Origin: Alistipes sp.
GTDB lineage: Bacteria > Bacteroidota > Bacteroidia > Bacteroidales > Rikenellaceae
Direction of reading: 5' to 3'
DNA: 64,000 nucleotides
Assembly (NCBI GenBank): GCA_045603045.1
Contig: JAZULJ010000018.1
Span: 1,067-65,066, forward strand
Shown: positions 16,513 to 21,218 of the stretch, in pieces
How positions within the stretch are numbered: the stretch's first letter is position 1
Layout: every line of letters begins with the position of its first letter
Notes under the pieces: model-generated
Seen by the model: the letters and a program-made list of their open reading frames with translations, nothing else
What the model was told of the DNA's origin: nothing
Databases searched by the model: none
Made by a program: the position numbers and the translations under genes

Positions 16513-16553
16513 CAGAAGGGGATGACTAAACGTAAATTAGTCATCCCCTTCTG
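16513..16553. terminator. Bidirectional terminator (repeat family C, copy 1)
   Basis: 17-bp stem CAGAAGGGGATGACTAA / TTAGTCATCCCCTTCTG between convergent genes. Confidence 0.85.
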
Positions 16554-16571: not shown

Positions 16572-17885
16572 CTACTCGGCAGACTGTTGCTCGGCAGACT
16601 GCTTCTTTGCCGGAGCACCCTTCACGGGGAGAATAGGCTGCTTAGCACCCTTATCGGGGTTGAGCTCATTGATATCTATCTTCTGAATACGAGCGTTGCC
16701 GGCCTGAGGAAGGTACGATGGGTCGTAGGGCTTAACATCGAGAACCTTAATGGTCATAACGATAGCCTCATTAGGCTGCGTATTGCGATTACCACGCTCG
16801 CCATAGGCCAACTCCGAGGGAAGCCACATAGTAATTTCGCCACCCTTACCTACCAACTTCAAAGCCTCGATAGCACCACGAACGCCCAACTGTTGAAGCG
16901 TGATAGTGGGTGTATAGGTCTTAGCGTACGACTCCTCCATCTTGGCAACAGCCTCGTCGATACGCTCCTGTGCTACTGTGCTATCGGCACGCATGGTCGC
17001 AATGCGATTCTCGGCATCCTTGCGGAGCATATCGGCACGATATGATGTTGACTCCACCAACGAGCCACGGCGTGTAAAGACCTCAAACTGAACGCTTACG
17101 GTATCACGGCGATCCGAAGCCTTAACATCGCTACCGCTATTTAGCACCTTGTAGTACATGGTATCGGCATCCACAGCCAACGCCGTAACATCCGAACGCT
17201 TTGCGATAGAGGCAATCCACTGCTGCGATAGCTCCTTGTTCTGTGCGGGAAGCTCATTCTTGACGTACTCGCGTAAGATACCACGCATCTGATCGGCGGT
17301 GATACGCATTACAGAGTCCATCTGATCGATAGTCTCAGCACCCTCGCTATCACGCATACCAGCAAGCATCCACTTCACGTTGATAGGTACCTGTATGGTG
17401 TGAACATAGTTTGCCATGTCAATACCAAACCACTGAGACACCTCCTCACGACTATACTTCTCGTTGTAGAGCTCTGGCTGAGGCAACGTATCGGGACGGT
17501 CGGTGTTAACCATGCGCTGCACTTGCTTCTGCATCATGAAGGGGCGAATACGCTCACCTGCAAACTGGTCGAGCTTAGCTCGTGTATCGGCACCAAACTG
17601 ATAGTCATGAGCCTTGGCGAGCGTCTTTTCGATATTAGCGATGACGATGTCGTTATCGAGGTCGAAATCGGCCTGCTGGAAGTTAAGGCTCACACCGAGG
17701 TTCATACCCATAGCATAAGACAGCGTATCGAACGGTGCGTCAGGGTCATTGTAGGCCTTATTGACGGCGCCAACACATTCGTAGTCGGGGTTAGGTGTCA
17801 TATCACCAAACACATCCTTAGGCTCCTCAGAGCCACATGCCGCACATATCGCAATGGCGGCAGCAAAAAATAGTACTCTCTTCAT
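16572..17885 (-). CDS. FKBP-type PPIase-like lipoprotein with duplicated FKBP_N region and a degenerate active site
   Basis: Lipobox CAA-C, DTLSYAMGMNLG (FKBP_N), DTVSVQF and PSELAYGERG. Confidence 0.8.
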   Translation of the reverse strand: MKRVLFFAAAIAICAACGSEEPKDVFGDMTPNPDYECVGAVNKAYNDPDAPFDTLSYAMGMNLGVSLNFQQADFDLDNDIVIANIEKTLAKAHDYQFGADTRAKLDQFAGERIRPFMMQKQVQRMVNTDRPDTLPQPELYNEKYSREEVSQWFGIDMANYVHTIQVPINVKWMLAGMRDSEGAETIDQMDSVMRITADQMRGILREYVKNELPAQNKELSQQWIASIAKRSDVTALAVDADTMYYKVLNSGSDVKASDRRDTVSVQFEVFTRRGSLVESTSYRADMLRKDAENRIATMRADSTVAQERIDEAVAKMEESYAKTYTPTITLQQLGVRGAIEALKLVGKGGEITMWLPSELAYGERGNRNTQPNEAIVMTIKVLDVKPYDPSYLPQAGNARIQKIDINELNPDKGAKQPILPVKGAPAKKQSAEQQSAE

Positions 17886-17899
17886 TTCTTAGATTTTAA

Positions 17900-18601
17900 T
17901 TATCTTTTTCTTCGATTAACTTGTTCCACTTCGATTAGCGTCATCTCGTAGTACAATAGTGTATTAGGCTTGATGTTGAGTGAGTCGCAGCCATCTGCAC
18001 CATAGGCCATCTGCGAGGGCACCCATGCCTCAATGCGGCCACCCTGACCAATGAGACGTACTGCCTCCTGAACACCTCGCGGCATATCGCCCACAGCAAT
18101 ACGCAACGTATCACCTCGATAGTAGGTCGTATCGACAATTTGGCCAGCGCTGTTCAGAATACGACACTGCATCTTCACGGTGTCGCGCGTGCTGCGTATT
18201 GCAGTCTTCAACTCGCCAATATCGCCAATCTTATACGTGAGACCCGTGCCCGTAGCCACAAACTTACGGTCCTGCTTGCGCAAATCCTCCAAGAATTGGC
18301 TCTCTAACCTCTTGACACGCTCATAGTTGTCGTAGTTCATATACTTCAAAAATGCCGTGCGCGCCTCCTCATCGGTGAGTTGTGCGTCTTGGGCATAGGC
18401 ATCTTTGATACCTTCGCACACCATATCGATATTGAGTGTCGAGTCAATATCCCTGAGGTTGAGACCCACATTCATACCCACGACATAGGACATCGTATCG
18501 AGACCACTCTGCATCGTTGCAGGTGCCGCCTTATCGCCACCACCACACGCCGTAATAAAGACCACGGCAGCGACTATCACTATGCTTAAAACATGCTTCA
18601 T
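17900..18601 (-). CDS. FKBP-type PPIase-like lipoprotein, degenerate active site
   Basis: Lipobox ITA-C, DTMSYVVGMNVG, PSQMAYG and PNTLLYYEMTL. Confidence 0.85.
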   Translation of the reverse strand: MKHVLSIVIVAAVVFITACGGGDKAAPATMQSGLDTMSYVVGMNVGLNLRDIDSTLNIDMVCEGIKDAYAQDAQLTDEEARTAFLKYMNYDNYERVKRLESQFLEDLRKQDRKFVATGTGLTYKIGDIGELKTAIRSTRDTVKMQCRILNSAGQIVDTTYYRGDTLRIAVGDMPRGVQEAVRLIGQGGRIEAWVPSQMAYGADGCDSLNIKPNTLLYYEMTLIEVEQVNRRKR

Positions 18602-18604
18602 AAG

Positions 18605-20035
18605 CTACTTATTACCCTTTTTGTGTCGCTCAACCATAGCCTGCTGAATAATTAGCAACGAGCCAAGCACGGCGGCCGTGATCGAACCTATAAGAATTGC
18701 TATCTTACCCTTATTGATAAACTCCATGTTGGCTGCCGCCTCCTCCACCGAGATTATATCGGTATTGGTACAGAAGGCGAGATTATCGACAAATATAGAC
18801 ATCGTAAAGCCTATACCTCCGAGGCACGCCACGGCAATAAGCATAGGCCACGACGCACCCGACGGGCGCTCGGCCAAGCCGAACTTCACGGCAAGGTAGC
18901 TGAATAGCGAGATGCCGAGAGGCTTACCTACAACCAGACCGCAGAAGATACCCATACCTATTGAGCCCACCTCAGGGCTATACTCGAAGATATTAAAGTA
19001 CTCAACCGACTCGATATGCACACCTGCATTGGCAAGCGCAAAGATGGGCATGATGAGAAAGTTGACATAGGGCATAAGGGCATGTTCAAGGCGTGTGCTC
19101 ATGCTAAGCGAGCCATTCGACACCTGCAACATACGGTTGATGCTGTAATGCAAAATATCATGCGCCTCCGCATTATCCATCTGCGCAACCTTTTGGATGT
19201 TACGCTCAATCATATCGGCCTTATGCATGAAGTAGGAACGGCTATATCGCGGTTTTGTGGGTATGAGCATCGCCATAGCCACACCCGAGATTGTGGCGTG
19301 AACACCCGAGTAGTAGAACAGTATCCACACTACGGCCGCGGGAATGAGGTAGGCCATCATGCGGAACTCGCCCATGCGACGCATGAGGTAGATACCTATC
19401 ATGATAAGGATGGCTATGCCGAGAAGCAGTAAATTGGGGGTCTCGCCATAGAAGAGTGCGATGACCAATATTGCACCAAGGTCATCGGCTACGGCCAACG
19501 CCGTAAGAAAGACCTTCAACGATATGGGCACACGGCGACCGAGTAGCGACATGATACCAATGGCAAAGGCTATATCCGTCGCTGTGGGGATACCCCAGCC
19601 GTTGGCAACTGCTGTACCGCCATTGAATGCTATGAAAATGGTTGCCGGCACGAGCATACCACCCATGGCAGCGATGATGGGCAAGGCCGCCTTCTTGGGT
19701 GAGGAGAGCTGTCCGTGCGATATCTCGCGACGTATTTCAAGACCTACCGTGAAGAAGAAGATGACCATCAGACCGTCGTTGATGAACTTCTCGATATTCA
19801 TACCCTTGGGGAAGAAGTACGAATTGCCGTCCATATTGAGGTATATGCTGAGGTCGGTAAGCAATATATCGTGATAGATATCGGCCGTAGCAGGCATGTT
19901 TGCCAGCAACATGGCCACGACCACACACACCACAAGAACAATACCGCCCGCCCAGGGAGCTTGCAGGAAGTTTTTGCCGCGCAACGAGAGGATATGGTTG
20001 CGCTTTATCATTGCAAATCGGTTAAACATCGACAT
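18605..20035 (-). CDS. nhaA: Na+/H+ antiporter NhaA
   Basis: INDGLM, ATDIAF, LAVADDLGA and GKPLG; the key Asp/Asp-Asp/Lys residues are present. Confidence 0.95.
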   Translation of the reverse strand: MSMFNRFAMIKRNHILSLRGKNFLQAPWAGGIVLVVCVVVAMLLANMPATADIYHDILLTDLSIYLNMDGNSYFFPKGMNIEKFINDGLMVIFFFTVGLEIRREISHGQLSSPKKAALPIIAAMGGMLVPATIFIAFNGGTAVANGWGIPTATDIAFAIGIMSLLGRRVPISLKVFLTALAVADDLGAILVIALFYGETPNLLLLGIAILIMIGIYLMRRMGEFRMMAYLIPAAVVWILFYYSGVHATISGVAMAMLIPTKPRYSRSYFMHKADMIERNIQKVAQMDNAEAHDILHYSINRMLQVSNGSLSMSTRLEHALMPYVNFLIMPIFALANAGVHIESVEYFNIFEYSPEVGSIGMGIFCGLVVGKPLGISLFSYLAVKFGLAERPSGASWPMLIAVACLGGIGFTMSIFVDNLAFCTNTDIISVEEAAANMEFINKGKIAILIGSITAAVLGSLLIIQQAMVERHKKGNK

Positions 20036-20078: not shown

Positions 20079-21137
20079 TTAGAGTACGTCGGGCGCAGGA
20101 TGCTCTTTGAGTGCCATGCTACACATCTTGAAGAGGAGGCGCGCGGCAATAGCAGCATCTGTACGGTCATCCATATCGGGCACCACCTCCGTAAGGTCGA
20201 AGCCCACGATACGACGCCCCGAGGTCACAAGTTTACCAACGAGATAAACAACCTCCGGGAAGCGCAAGCCACCCGATACAAGCGTACCCGTATGGGGTGA
20301 GCACTCGATGGTCAGACCGTCGATATCGAGCGATACATATACCTTCTCAGGGAGTGTCTCAATAATCTCATCGCACAACGCAGCCCACGTCACGCCCTCG
20401 AACTTCTGCGACCACAGATACTGTCCCGTGAAGAGGTGTATGCGCTCATCGCTCTGGGCACGCTCCCACTCGCGGGGGCTGAACTCACGCACACCAACCG
20501 ACACAAGACGCTTCACCTGAGGCACGTCGCGCATGATGTTGTGCATCACCGAGGCATGCGAGAAGTCGAAGTTATAGTGTTGCTCGCGCAGGTCGCACTT
20601 CGAGTCTATATGCAAAATACCGACCTCGTTGTGCTTCTCGCCCACGGCCTTGACCAGACCATAGGCCACCGACTGTTCGCCACCGACCAGGCCCACAATC
20701 TTATCCCTGTCGAGCCAGCGCTTTGCCTGCTCATATATATTGTTATTAACCTCAGCCGAGCCCTCGTTGACCTTACGCAGACGGCGCGAGTGTAGCATAT
20801 TCTCTATCGACGATAGTCCCAGCTCATCGTGCATCTTCATAACGCGCTCAGCATCGGAGCGCAGACGGTGCGACAAATCCTGTATGCGATAATCGATAGG
20901 CGCCGTGGCGATACCCTTACGCCAGCTATATGGCGCCGAAGGCTCATAAAAGTCTATGAAGCGCGACGCCTCAATGATGGCGTCGGGGGCATACGAGCTG
21001 CCGGCACGTATCTGCACCGTAGCATCCCATGGAGCCGATATGAGCACCAGGGCTGCATCCTCGGCACTGAGTGGCATACCGAAATAATTGCCGTTATCGG
21101 GCACTACACCATTGGGGTCAAACTCTGTTGTATGCAT
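20079..21137 (-). CDS. Agmatinase/ureohydrolase family protein with both metal-binding histidines substituted
   Basis: PWDAT, GGEQS (canonical GGE/DHS), DSKCD (canonical DAHxD), SLDIDGL and GFDLTEV. Confidence 0.85.
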   Translation of the reverse strand: MHTTEFDPNGVVPDNGNYFGMPLSAEDAALVLISAPWDATVQIRAGSSYAPDAIIEASRFIDFYEPSAPYSWRKGIATAPIDYRIQDLSHRLRSDAERVMKMHDELGLSSIENMLHSRRLRKVNEGSAEVNNNIYEQAKRWLDRDKIVGLVGGEQSVAYGLVKAVGEKHNEVGILHIDSKCDLREQHYNFDFSHASVMHNIMRDVPQVKRLVSVGVREFSPREWERAQSDERIHLFTGQYLWSQKFEGVTWAALCDEIIETLPEKVYVSLDIDGLTIECSPHTGTLVSGGLRFPEVVYLVGKLVTSGRRIVGFDLTEVVPDMDDRTDAAIAARLLFKMCSMALKEHPAPDVL

Positions 21138-21218
21138 ATTCTACCGATTAGTTGGTTAATCACACTTTTTGCACAGCAAAATAACATGCAAATATAGTAA
21201 CTTTTTTGCATTTTTTAC

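What the first reader, a model, noticed from the sequence alone, without database searches (positions are those of the whole stretch)
20079..21137. Agmatinase-like protein lacking both metal-binding histidines, leading an operon with NhaA and two FKBP-like lipoproteins
Established knowledge: ureohydrolases bind two Mn2+ ions through GG(D/E)HS, DAHxD and DxD. Seen in sequence: GGEQS (H to Q), DSKCD (AH to SK) and intact DIDG, in a full-length, uninterrupted ORF. It heads a co-oriented run (agmatinase-like, nhaA, FKBP-like, FKBP-like) with gaps of 43, 3 and 14 bp. Non-catalytic ureohydrolase subunits have precedent, such as MfmB of metformin hydrolase. Inference: a pseudoenzyme or enzyme with changed metal/substrate, possibly a guanidine or polyamine sensor or scaffold tied to Na+/pH homeostasis and envelope folding.
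Basis: partly seen in the sequence, partly recalled or inferred. Interest (0 to 1): 0.62.

Follow-up and report, generated by a model that had tools for sequence, protein, structure and literature searches.

The report
Conserved dead agmatinase-like protein in Alistipes
A gut Alistipes bacterium keeps, under strong selection, a single agmatinase-like protein whose metal-binding catalytic site is wrecked, so it is almost certainly a "pseudoenzyme" that has taken on a still unknown non-catalytic job.

Summary
The ORF at 20079-21137 (-) encodes a 352-aa arginase-fold protein in which both metal-binding histidines are replaced (GGEQS, DSKCD); DIDG, H194 and E317 are intact. It is not a decaying gene and not a one-off. 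It belongs to a single clade of at least 64 Alistipes species whose former ligand positions are degenerate in about 20 different combinations. Position 180 varies freely (S/R/K/G/N/H/Q/M/T). Even so, all 81 genes examined are intact and selection is strongly purifying (ML omega 0.087; 0.063 in the canonical sister clades). The wider subfamily is about 92% canonical and, in Flavobacteriia, abuts a SpeD-SpeE fusion, so the ancestor was a polyamine-pathway ureohydrolase. The window's genome has no second arginase-fold gene, which rules out an MfmB-style partner role. It has no detectable SpeA, SpeC, LysA, SpeD or SpeE, but it does have PotABCD. The gene order ARG-antiporter-FKBP-FKBP is genus-wide and older than the degeneration. 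Within the degenerate clade the antiporter slot is never empty, although NhaA is swapped for an NhaD-like permease about five times. No residue co-varies with those swaps. Best reading: a stand-alone, conserved arginase-fold pseudoenzyme of unknown binding function.

The parts
20079..21137 (-). Arginase-fold (SpeB-like subfamily) gene, 352 aa, degenerate metal site; the only PF00491 gene in the genome
20670..20684 (-). GGEQS (residues 152-156). Q155 replaces the MnA-ligand His. Within the clade this position is restricted to Q (58) or H (6)
20592..20606 (-). DSKCD (residues 178-182). K180 replaces the MnB-ligand His. It is among the most variable positions in the clade (2.75 bits, 96th percentile). 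D182 is D or N
20316..20327 (-). DIDG (residues 271-274). D271 is invariant in the clade; D273 is D (51) or N (13)
20712..20891 (-). Helical hairpin insertion (residues 83-142, two long helices) typical of this ~350-aa subfamily; absent from E. coli SpeB
18605..20035 (-). NhaA Na+/H+ antiporter, 43 bp downstream. In 16 related species the same slot holds an NhaD-like CitMHS_2 permease instead
17900..18601 (-). FKBP_N + FKBP_C lipoprotein (FKBP1), 3 bp after NhaA
16572..17885 (-). Longer FKBP_N + FKBP_C lipoprotein (FKBP2), 14 bp after FKBP1; fast-evolving (median 34% identity within the clade)
16513..16553 (.). Perfect 17-bp-stem hairpin 18 nt after the FKBP2 stop; likely end of the transcription unit
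21189..21196 (-). TATATTTG, which fits the Bacteroidota -7 promoter consensus TAnnTTTG (own knowledge), 52 nt upstream of the ATG; candidate promoter only

Best explanation
The gene encodes a stand-alone arginase-fold pseudoenzyme. It descends from a SpeB-like polyamine-pathway ureohydrolase (agmatinase or N1-aminopropylagmatine ureohydrolase type). Once, at the base of one Alistipes clade, that ancestor stopped being selected for binuclear-metal hydrolysis and was kept for another purpose. Shown: the fold is intact; the MnB ligand position evolves freely; other ligands and the proton-shuttle His drift to N/S/Y/Q; and the substrate-specificity loops (residues 184-191 and 285-287) lost their constraint. 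Also shown: the protein as a whole is as conserved as its housekeeping neighbours, and about 22 positions became newly invariant in this clade. Among these are two tryptophans (W224, W242) and P221, Q239, R59, D87 and H90, at positions that vary freely in the wider family. Inferred: the protein now works by binding rather than by catalysis. It may bind a partner protein through the newly constrained surface, a cation (guanidinium or polyamine type) in the still acidic, metal-poor fossil pocket (D178, D271 and E317 remain fixed), or both. In this organism the ancestral pathway appears to be gone: no arginine, ornithine or SAM decarboxylase and no aminopropyltransferase was detected, and a PotABCD importer is present. 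The protein therefore has no obvious substrate to hydrolyse. It is probably made from the first cistron of a transcript that also encodes a Na+/H+ antiporter and two FKBP lipoproteins.
For: Motif substitutions are verified residue by residue. Of 81 species-level orthologues, 64 form one clade (UFBoot 82) with degenerate ligands in about 20 combinations, and 17 sister sequences are fully canonical. Position 180 has 2.75 bits of entropy (96th percentile); D182 is D41/N22/K1, H194 is H46/S9/N6/Y3 and D273 is D51/N13, while D271 and E317 are invariant. All 81 ORFs are intact at 342-355 aa. The ML codon omega is 0.087 in the degenerate clade and 0.063 in the canonical one. Pairwise NG86 gives a median of 0.075, and 0.040 for the query against L002. 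Median identity within the clade is 70%, compared with NhaA 72%, PdxB 63%, PyrD 63% and FKBP1 60%. Gain and loss of constraint by site is documented. The wider subfamily is canonical in 128 of 139 representatives. The Flavobacteriia relative starts 3 nt after an AdoMet_dc + Spermine_synth fusion gene. The genome has a single PF00491 gene. It gives no tblastn hit for SpeA, SpeC, LysA, SpeD, SpeE or the SpeD-SpeE fusion, while a PotABCD cluster is present. The AF2 model is confident (pLDDT 84, pTM 0.88), with agmatinase, PAH and guanidinobutyrase as top structural matches.
Against: There is no biochemical data, so 'inactive' is inferred from sequence. Q155 is restricted to Q or H, and D154, D178, D271 and E317 stay fixed, which could mean that a mononuclear or hard-cation site still works. 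The new function is not identified. The three-dimensional location of the newly conserved residues could not be computed, because the tools do not return model coordinates. Absence of the pathway rests on a 92%-complete MAG and on tblastn with E. coli and Flavobacteriia queries; pyruvoyl-type arginine decarboxylase and the agmatine deiminase route were tested only by a crude motif search or not at all.
Confidence: 0.6

Rival explanations
1. It is still a hydrolase, using a remodelled site: a single metal held by Q155, D178, D182 and D271, a harder cation such as Mg2+ or Ca2+, or metal-independent chemistry. It would act on a new guanidino or amide substrate.
For: Selection is strongly purifying. 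D271 and E317 are invariant, D154 and D178 nearly so, and position 155 is limited to Q or H. H194 and E317 are present in the window's protein.
Against: The MnB ligand position is unconstrained, taking nine different residues including G, M, K and R. The proton-shuttle His is S, N or Y in 18 of 64 sequences. D182 and D273 are often N. The loops that were invariant around the substrate in the canonical sister clade (R184, Y187, E188, E191, T285-P286-V287) are variable here. A conserved catalytic machine would not tolerate all of this across the clade. No enzyme that could supply a substrate was detected in the genome.
Confidence: 0.2
2. It is a cytoplasmic regulator or accessory factor of the downstream Na+/H+ antiporter. 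For example, it could couple cation, polyamine or pH status to antiport.
For: In the degenerate clade the slot after the gene always holds an antiporter-annotated gene: 47 NhaA (including the window) and 16 NhaD-like CitMHS_2, with one locus ending at NhaA where its contig stops. On the gene tree there are 5 in-place swaps and 0 losses over tree length 9.5, against 3 losses over length 4.3 in the canonical part. At the canonical loss rate about 6.7 losses would be expected, so P(0) is about 0.001; this is a rough estimate of my own. The gaps are tight at 43 and 3 bp.
Against: NhaA in the slot is ancestral to the genus and predates the degeneration, and canonical orthologues share the same neighbours. 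No residue of the protein differs consistently between NhaA-linked and NhaD-like-linked genes in two independent contrasts or overall. No such NhaA partner is known (own knowledge). The statistic uses a gene tree as a proxy for the species tree, and ecology could explain antiporter retention.
Confidence: 0.12
3. It is the non-catalytic partner subunit of a heteromeric ureohydrolase, as MetCb/MfmB/MefH-beta is in metformin hydrolase.
For: Loss of metal ligands in an otherwise intact arginase fold resembles MetCb (PMC11271267, PMC11399263).
Against: The whole genome holds only one PF00491 gene, and no adjacent paralogue appears in any of 80 related loci.
Confidence: 0.03
4. It is a decaying gene on its way to becoming a pseudogene after loss of polyamine synthesis.
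For: The catalytic ligands are degenerate and the pathway seems absent.
Against: 81 of 81 ORFs are intact. Omega is 0.087 over a clade whose synonymous sites are saturated (dS is about 1 even against the closest relative). About 22 residues are newly invariant. The protein is as conserved as NhaA.
Confidence: 0.02

Closest known systems
Trypanosoma brucei arginase-like protein (Hai et al. 2015, cited in PMC11271267 and PMC10820115)
   Same: A stand-alone arginase-fold protein that lacks the binuclear-metal ligands, is described as inactive, and has no known function. The organism obtains the pathway product from outside.
   Different: It is eukaryotic and descends from arginase proper, not from a SpeB-like agmatinase subfamily. 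The origin here is independent: bacterial, documented across at least 64 species with quantified purifying selection, and set in a fixed operon-like context.
MetCb / MfmB / MefH-beta, the metal-free subunit of metformin hydrolase (PMC11271267, PMC11399263)
   Same: A bacterial agmatinase-family member that lost its metal-coordinating residues and is retained for a non-catalytic role.
   Different: MetCb works only as partner of a co-encoded active paralogue (MetCa). Here the genome has no second arginase-family gene and none lies next to the gene in any of 80 related loci.
[quoted passage not shown] 2022, cited in PMC11271267)
   Same: Natural sequence divergence within one bacterial lineage abolishes arginase-fold activity in some species, while related species keep it.
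   Different: That is a domain fused to an active ODC. This is a free-standing protein.
SpeB-type ureohydrolases: agmatinase, N1-aminopropylagmatine ureohydrolase, diagmatine ureohydrolase (PMC13625781, PMC10981699)
   Same: Same fold and nearest sequence family: TIGR01230 is the best NCBIfam hit, and canonical subfamily members score 159-171.5 bits against the 174.3 cut-off. A Flavobacteriia relative is linked to SpeD-SpeE.
   Different: Two of the six metal ligands are replaced, the score drops to 129.6 bits, the substrate loops are unconstrained, and no agmatine-producing enzyme was detected in the genome.

Membership tests
Arginase/ureohydrolase superfamily (Pfam PF00491) | Significant full-length match to the family profile and the arginase alpha/beta fold | tested here: met
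   164.5 bits against a cut-off of 22, covering profile positions 2-278 of 280. AF2 model pLDDT 84. Foldseek probability 1.00 to PAH 1gq6, agmatinases 3pzl and 7lol, and guanidinobutyrase 3nio.
Agmatinase SpeB (NCBIfam TIGR01230 equivalog) | Score at or above the curated cut-off (174.3 bits) | tested here: not met
   129.6 bits. Canonical relatives of the same subfamily score 158.8-171.5, also just below the cut-off.
Agmatinase SpeB / catalytically competent binuclear-metal ureohydrolase | Six metal ligands: H (GGDH), D-x-H-x-D, D-x-D | tested here: not met
   H155Q and H180K. In the same columns E. coli SpeB reads DHDHDHDDE and the query reads EQDKDHDDE.
Agmatinase SpeB / catalytically competent binuclear-metal ureohydrolase | Catalytic-shell His (proton shuttle) and the Glu that binds guanidinium | tested here: met
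   H194 and E317 are present in the window's protein. E317 is invariant in the clade, but H194 is S, N or Y in 18 of 64 clade members.
Agmatinase SpeB / catalytically competent binuclear-metal ureohydrolase | Pathway context: an arginine decarboxylase or aminopropyltransferase supplying the substrate | tested here: not met
   No tblastn hit for SpeA, SpeC, LysA (E<=1), SpeD, SpeE or the SpeD-SpeE fusion in the 92%-complete genome. Pyruvoyl-type ADC was not tested.
Agmatinase SpeB / catalytically competent binuclear-metal ureohydrolase | Urea release from agmatine; Mn2+ or Ni2+ content | not testable with these tools
   Needs purified protein.
Heteromeric-ureohydrolase pseudo-subunit (MetCb/MfmB type) | Metal ligands lost | tested here: met
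Heteromeric-ureohydrolase pseudo-subunit (MetCb/MfmB type) | Co-encoded, catalytically intact arginase-family partner | tested here: not met
   One PF00491 gene in the genome; none adjacent in 80 related loci.
Stand-alone metal-free arginase-fold pseudoenzyme (T. brucei type) | Intact fold, ligand set incompatible with a binuclear cluster, gene maintained by selection, no active paralogue | tested here: met
Stand-alone metal-free arginase-fold pseudoenzyme (T. brucei type) | Demonstrated absence of metal and of activity | not testable with these tools
   Needs ICP-MS and enzyme assays.

The most novel reading that the evidence does not exclude
The fossil active site (an acidic pocket without its metals) has become a receptor for a guanidinium or polyamine cation, and the new tryptophan-bearing surface is an output interface. 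The protein would then be a ligand-gated cytoplasmic regulator that links imported polyamine or cation status to the Na+/H+ antiporter always encoded next to it in these polyamine-auxotrophic gut Alistipes. That would be an enzyme-to-sensor conversion in a bacterial polyamine pathway, comparable in logic to the eukaryotic antizyme inhibitor.
Probability: 0.1. Interest if true: 0.8.

Novelty: new member of a known kind. Interest (0 to 1): 0.5.

Why it matters
Metal-free arginase-fold proteins are known, but according to the literature read here (PMC11271267) their functions remain elusive except where an active partner exists. This case offers a clean natural experiment. Within one genus, canonical and degenerate orthologues sit in the same genomic position; the degeneration happened once; and selection afterwards stayed as strong as before while the constrained residues shifted. 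That makes the question 'what does a dead ureohydrolase do?' directly testable by comparing two orthologues. It also warns that 'agmatinase' annotations in gut Alistipes MAGs, and metabolic models that infer putrescine or urea production from them, are probably wrong for this clade.

Tried and rejected
(1) Decaying-gene reading: rejected by intact ORFs in 81 of 81 genes and omega of about 0.09. (2) MfmB-like partner: rejected because there is only one arginase-family gene. (3) K180 as a designed metal surrogate: rejected as a clade feature because position 180 takes nine residues with no charge-compensation pattern. (4) A new Cys/His site (H176, C181, C279, H282): these residues are shared with the canonical Alistipes orthologues, so they are not linked to the degeneration. 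They vary in the wider family. Only C280->S is a fixed difference. (5) Co-adaptation with the antiporter type: no co-varying residue. (6) The sigma-70 promoter scan was uninformative (7 sites found, 7.7 expected). (7) Rfam and tRNA scans of the window found only four tRNAs and nothing near the locus. (8) A motif search for agmatine deiminase or CN-hydrolase found nothing, but the motifs came from memory, so the negative is weak. (9) The context of a third canonical relative (P0298) was uninformative. The T. brucei paper itself is not held. (11) The first parse of the iqtree omega failed; the values were taken from the log.

Full report
OBSERVATION. The ORF at 20079-21137 on the minus strand encodes 352 aa. 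It matches Pfam Arginase (PF00491) at E=4.7e-48 over almost the whole profile. Its best NCBIfam hit is agmatinase TIGR01230, but at 129.6 bits it falls below the 174.3-bit cut-off. Residue-level alignments to solved agmatinases (3lhl, 3pzl) and guanidinobutyrase (3nio) put GGEQS under GGEH/GGDH and DSKCD under DAHxD. With E. coli SpeB in the same alignment, the nine catalytic columns read DHDHDHDDE for SpeB and EQDKDHDDE for the query. Both metal-binding histidines are therefore replaced: Q155 (codon CAG) and K180 (codon AAG). DIDG, H194 and E317 remain. The gaps to NhaA, FKBP1 and FKBP2 are 43, 3 and 14 bp, exactly as stated. An independent MAG (L002, 93% identical) carries the same Q and K, so this is not an assembly error.

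IT IS A CLADE, NOT A ONE-OFF. Among 120 close homologues, 21 (53-63% identical) carry the full canonical ligand set. The other 99, like the query, are degenerate in dozens of combinations. In the named genome collection, 201 relatives were found and the best 80 kept; all are Alistipes, Rikenellaceae or Bacteroidales MAGs, mostly from ruminant hindgut. All 80 genes are intact ORFs of 342-355 aa. On a maximum-likelihood tree, the 64 degenerate sequences (including the query) form one clade with UFBoot 82, and the 17 canonical ones lie outside it. Within the clade, position 180 (the MnB histidine) is S20, R10, K9, G9, N7, H3, Q3, M2, T1. That is 2.75 bits, the 96th percentile of site entropy. D182 is D or N (41/22), the proton-shuttle H194 is H, S, N or Y (46/9/6/3), and D273 is D or N (51/13). 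Position 155 is Q or H only (58/6). D271 and E317 are invariant.

SELECTION. A codon model (GY+F3X4) gives omega = 0.087 for 20 degenerate-clade genes and 0.063 for the 17 canonical genes. Pairwise Nei-Gojobori estimates for pairs with dS<1 have a median of 0.075, and the query against L002 gives 0.040. Across the clade the protein is 70% identical to the window's copy (median). NhaA is 72%, PdxB and PyrD 63%, and FKBP1 60%. The gene is clearly maintained. The pattern of constraint, however, has shifted. Residues that are invariant in the canonical sister group around the substrate pocket (R184, Y187, E188, E191, T285-P286-V287) are variable in the degenerate clade. About 22 other positions have become invariant only there. 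Several of these (R59, D87, H90, P221, W224, Q239, W242) lie at positions that vary freely in the wider family, which is what a newly used surface would look like. I could not place them in three dimensions because model coordinates are not returned. From the secondary structure, P221/W224 and T237/Q239/W242 lie at the N-terminal ends of helices that follow beta-strands, on the active-site side of the sheet. That placement is an inference.

WHAT THE ANCESTOR DID. A profile search of 1.8 billion representatives finds 656 proteins at E<=1e-30. Of the 139 full-length top hits, 128 carry [D/E]HDHDHDDE. The subfamily is therefore a normal ureohydrolase family of about 350 aa, with a helical-hairpin insertion at residues 83-142. 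Sources name its members only 'agmatinase (family protein)'. In three Flavobacteriia contigs the relative starts 3 nt after a fused SAM-decarboxylase/aminopropyltransferase gene (AdoMet_dc + Spermine_synth). That is the signature of the agmatine / N1-aminopropylagmatine route to spermidine described in PMC13625781 and PMC10981699. Canonical relatives score 159-171.5 bits on TIGR01230, just under the cut-off, whereas degenerate ones score about 129. The ancestor was most likely a polyamine-pathway ureohydrolase.

THE HOST GENOME. The assembly is 1.73 Mb in 51 contigs and 92% complete. It has a single PF00491 gene, this one, so an MfmB/MetCb-style role as partner of an active paralogue is excluded. 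tblastn with E. coli SpeA, SpeC, LysA, SpeD and SpeE, and with the Flavobacteriia SpeD-SpeE fusion, finds nothing. A complete potA-potB-potC-potD cluster is present on contig C47. Subject to MAG incompleteness and to untested enzyme types (pyruvoyl ADC; agmatine deiminase only by a crude motif), the organism looks like a polyamine importer with no way of making the ancestral substrate.

THE NEIGHBOURS. The order pdxB <- -> ARG-(antiporter)-FKBP1-FKBP2 holds in all 80 loci, including the canonical ones. It is genus-level synteny and older than the degeneration. Ten of the 17 canonical loci have no gene between ARG and FKBP1, and seven have NhaA. In the degenerate clade the slot is never empty. 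It holds NhaA in 46 loci plus the window, and L019 shows NhaA right up to the end of its contig. In the other 16 it holds a CitMHS_2 (PF16980) permease that NCBI calls 'sodium:proton antiporter' and JGI calls 'NhaD/arsenite permease-like'. Parsimony on the gene tree gives 5 NhaA<->NhaD-like swaps and 0 losses in the degenerate part (tree length 9.5), against 3 losses in the canonical part (length 4.3). That contrast is suggestive: at the canonical loss rate about 6.7 losses would be expected. It rests, however, on a gene tree and could reflect ecology. No residue of the ARG-like protein differs consistently between NhaA-linked and NhaD-like-linked genes, so there is no sign of partner-specific co-adaptation. 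The FKBPs have lipoprotein signal sequences and the ARG-like protein has none, so a direct role in envelope folding is unlikely. No terminator-like site separates the four genes. A perfect 17-bp hairpin follows FKBP2, and a TATATTTG box lies 52 nt upstream of the ATG.

INTERPRETATION. The best-supported reading (about 0.6) is a stand-alone arginase-fold pseudoenzyme. Catalysis stopped being selected once, the old site has partly fossilised, and the protein is kept for a binding function: a partner, a cationic ligand, or both. That function remains unidentified. The main rival (about 0.2) is a remodelled hydrolase that uses what is left of the MnA site. The clade-wide variability of the MnB ligand, the shuttle His, D182/D273 and the substrate loops argues against it. 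A regulatory link to the antiporter (about 0.12) survives only on the never-empty-slot argument. The MfmB-like and decaying-gene readings are essentially refuted.

COMPARISON WITH WHAT IS KNOWN. Metal-free arginase-fold proteins are documented. They include the T. brucei arginase-like protein, the MetCb/MfmB/MefH-beta subunit of metformin hydrolase, and the arginase domain of the Fusobacteriaceae ODC/arginase (PMC11271267, PMC11399263, PMC10820115). This is an independent bacterial instance of the stand-alone type, derived from the SpeB side of the family. I therefore file it as a new member of a known kind. Its value lies in the matched canonical and degenerate orthologues within one genus and in the practical warning about 'agmatinase' annotations in gut Alistipes.

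As a result, the correlation between pathway loss and degeneration across species, and the expression of the locus, remain untested.

Noticed in passing
L010:3656-4957 and 15 other related loci (e.g. L058:8203-9495, L034:8089-9399); corresponds to window 18605-20035: In 16 related Alistipes species the NhaA gene between the arginase-fold gene and FKBP1 is replaced, in exactly the same slot, by a non-homologous CitMHS_2 permease annotated as an NhaD-like sodium:proton antiporter. The gene tree implies about 5 swaps. This looks like cassette exchange of two analogous transporters between conserved flanks.
   Followed up: partly
It lies inside the 314-bp divergent intergenic region that must also hold the promoter of the arginase-fold gene.
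   Followed up: no
whole genome G000 (contig C47:4056-8249 for potABCD): The 1.73-Mb genome gives no tblastn hit for E. coli LysA, SpeA, SpeC, SpeD or SpeE, but it has a complete PotABCD-like importer. This suggests a reduced genome that is auxotrophic for polyamines and possibly lacks the usual diaminopimelate decarboxylase.
   Followed up: partly
window 16572-17885: The second FKBP lipoprotein evolves much faster than its operon neighbours: median 34% identity within the clade, against 60% for FKBP1 and 72% for NhaA. Its FKBP_C match is barely above the Pfam cut-off (22.6 vs 21.1 bits).
   Followed up: no
L083:4697-7580 (also L084, L085): Flavobacteriia cluster of a fused SAM decarboxylase/aminopropyltransferase (433 aa), a canonical ~349-aa ureohydrolase of this subfamily and an unannotated 176-aa protein. 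The ureohydrolase starts 3 nt after the fusion gene and the 176-aa ORF overlaps its stop codon by 1 nt. This is probably an N1-aminopropylagmatine route to spermidine.
   Followed up: no
window 20298-20303 (residues 279-280): Canonical Alistipes orthologues have an invariant Cys-Cys pair in the loop after DIDG. The degenerate clade has Cys-Ser (S280 in 93%). Together with H155Q this is one of only two fixed differences between residues conserved in both groups.
   Followed up: no
window 16513-16553: A perfect 17-bp-stem, 7-nt-loop hairpin lies 18 nt downstream of the FKBP2 stop, with a T-run on the plus strand. It is probably a terminator closing the four-gene unit.
   Followed up: no
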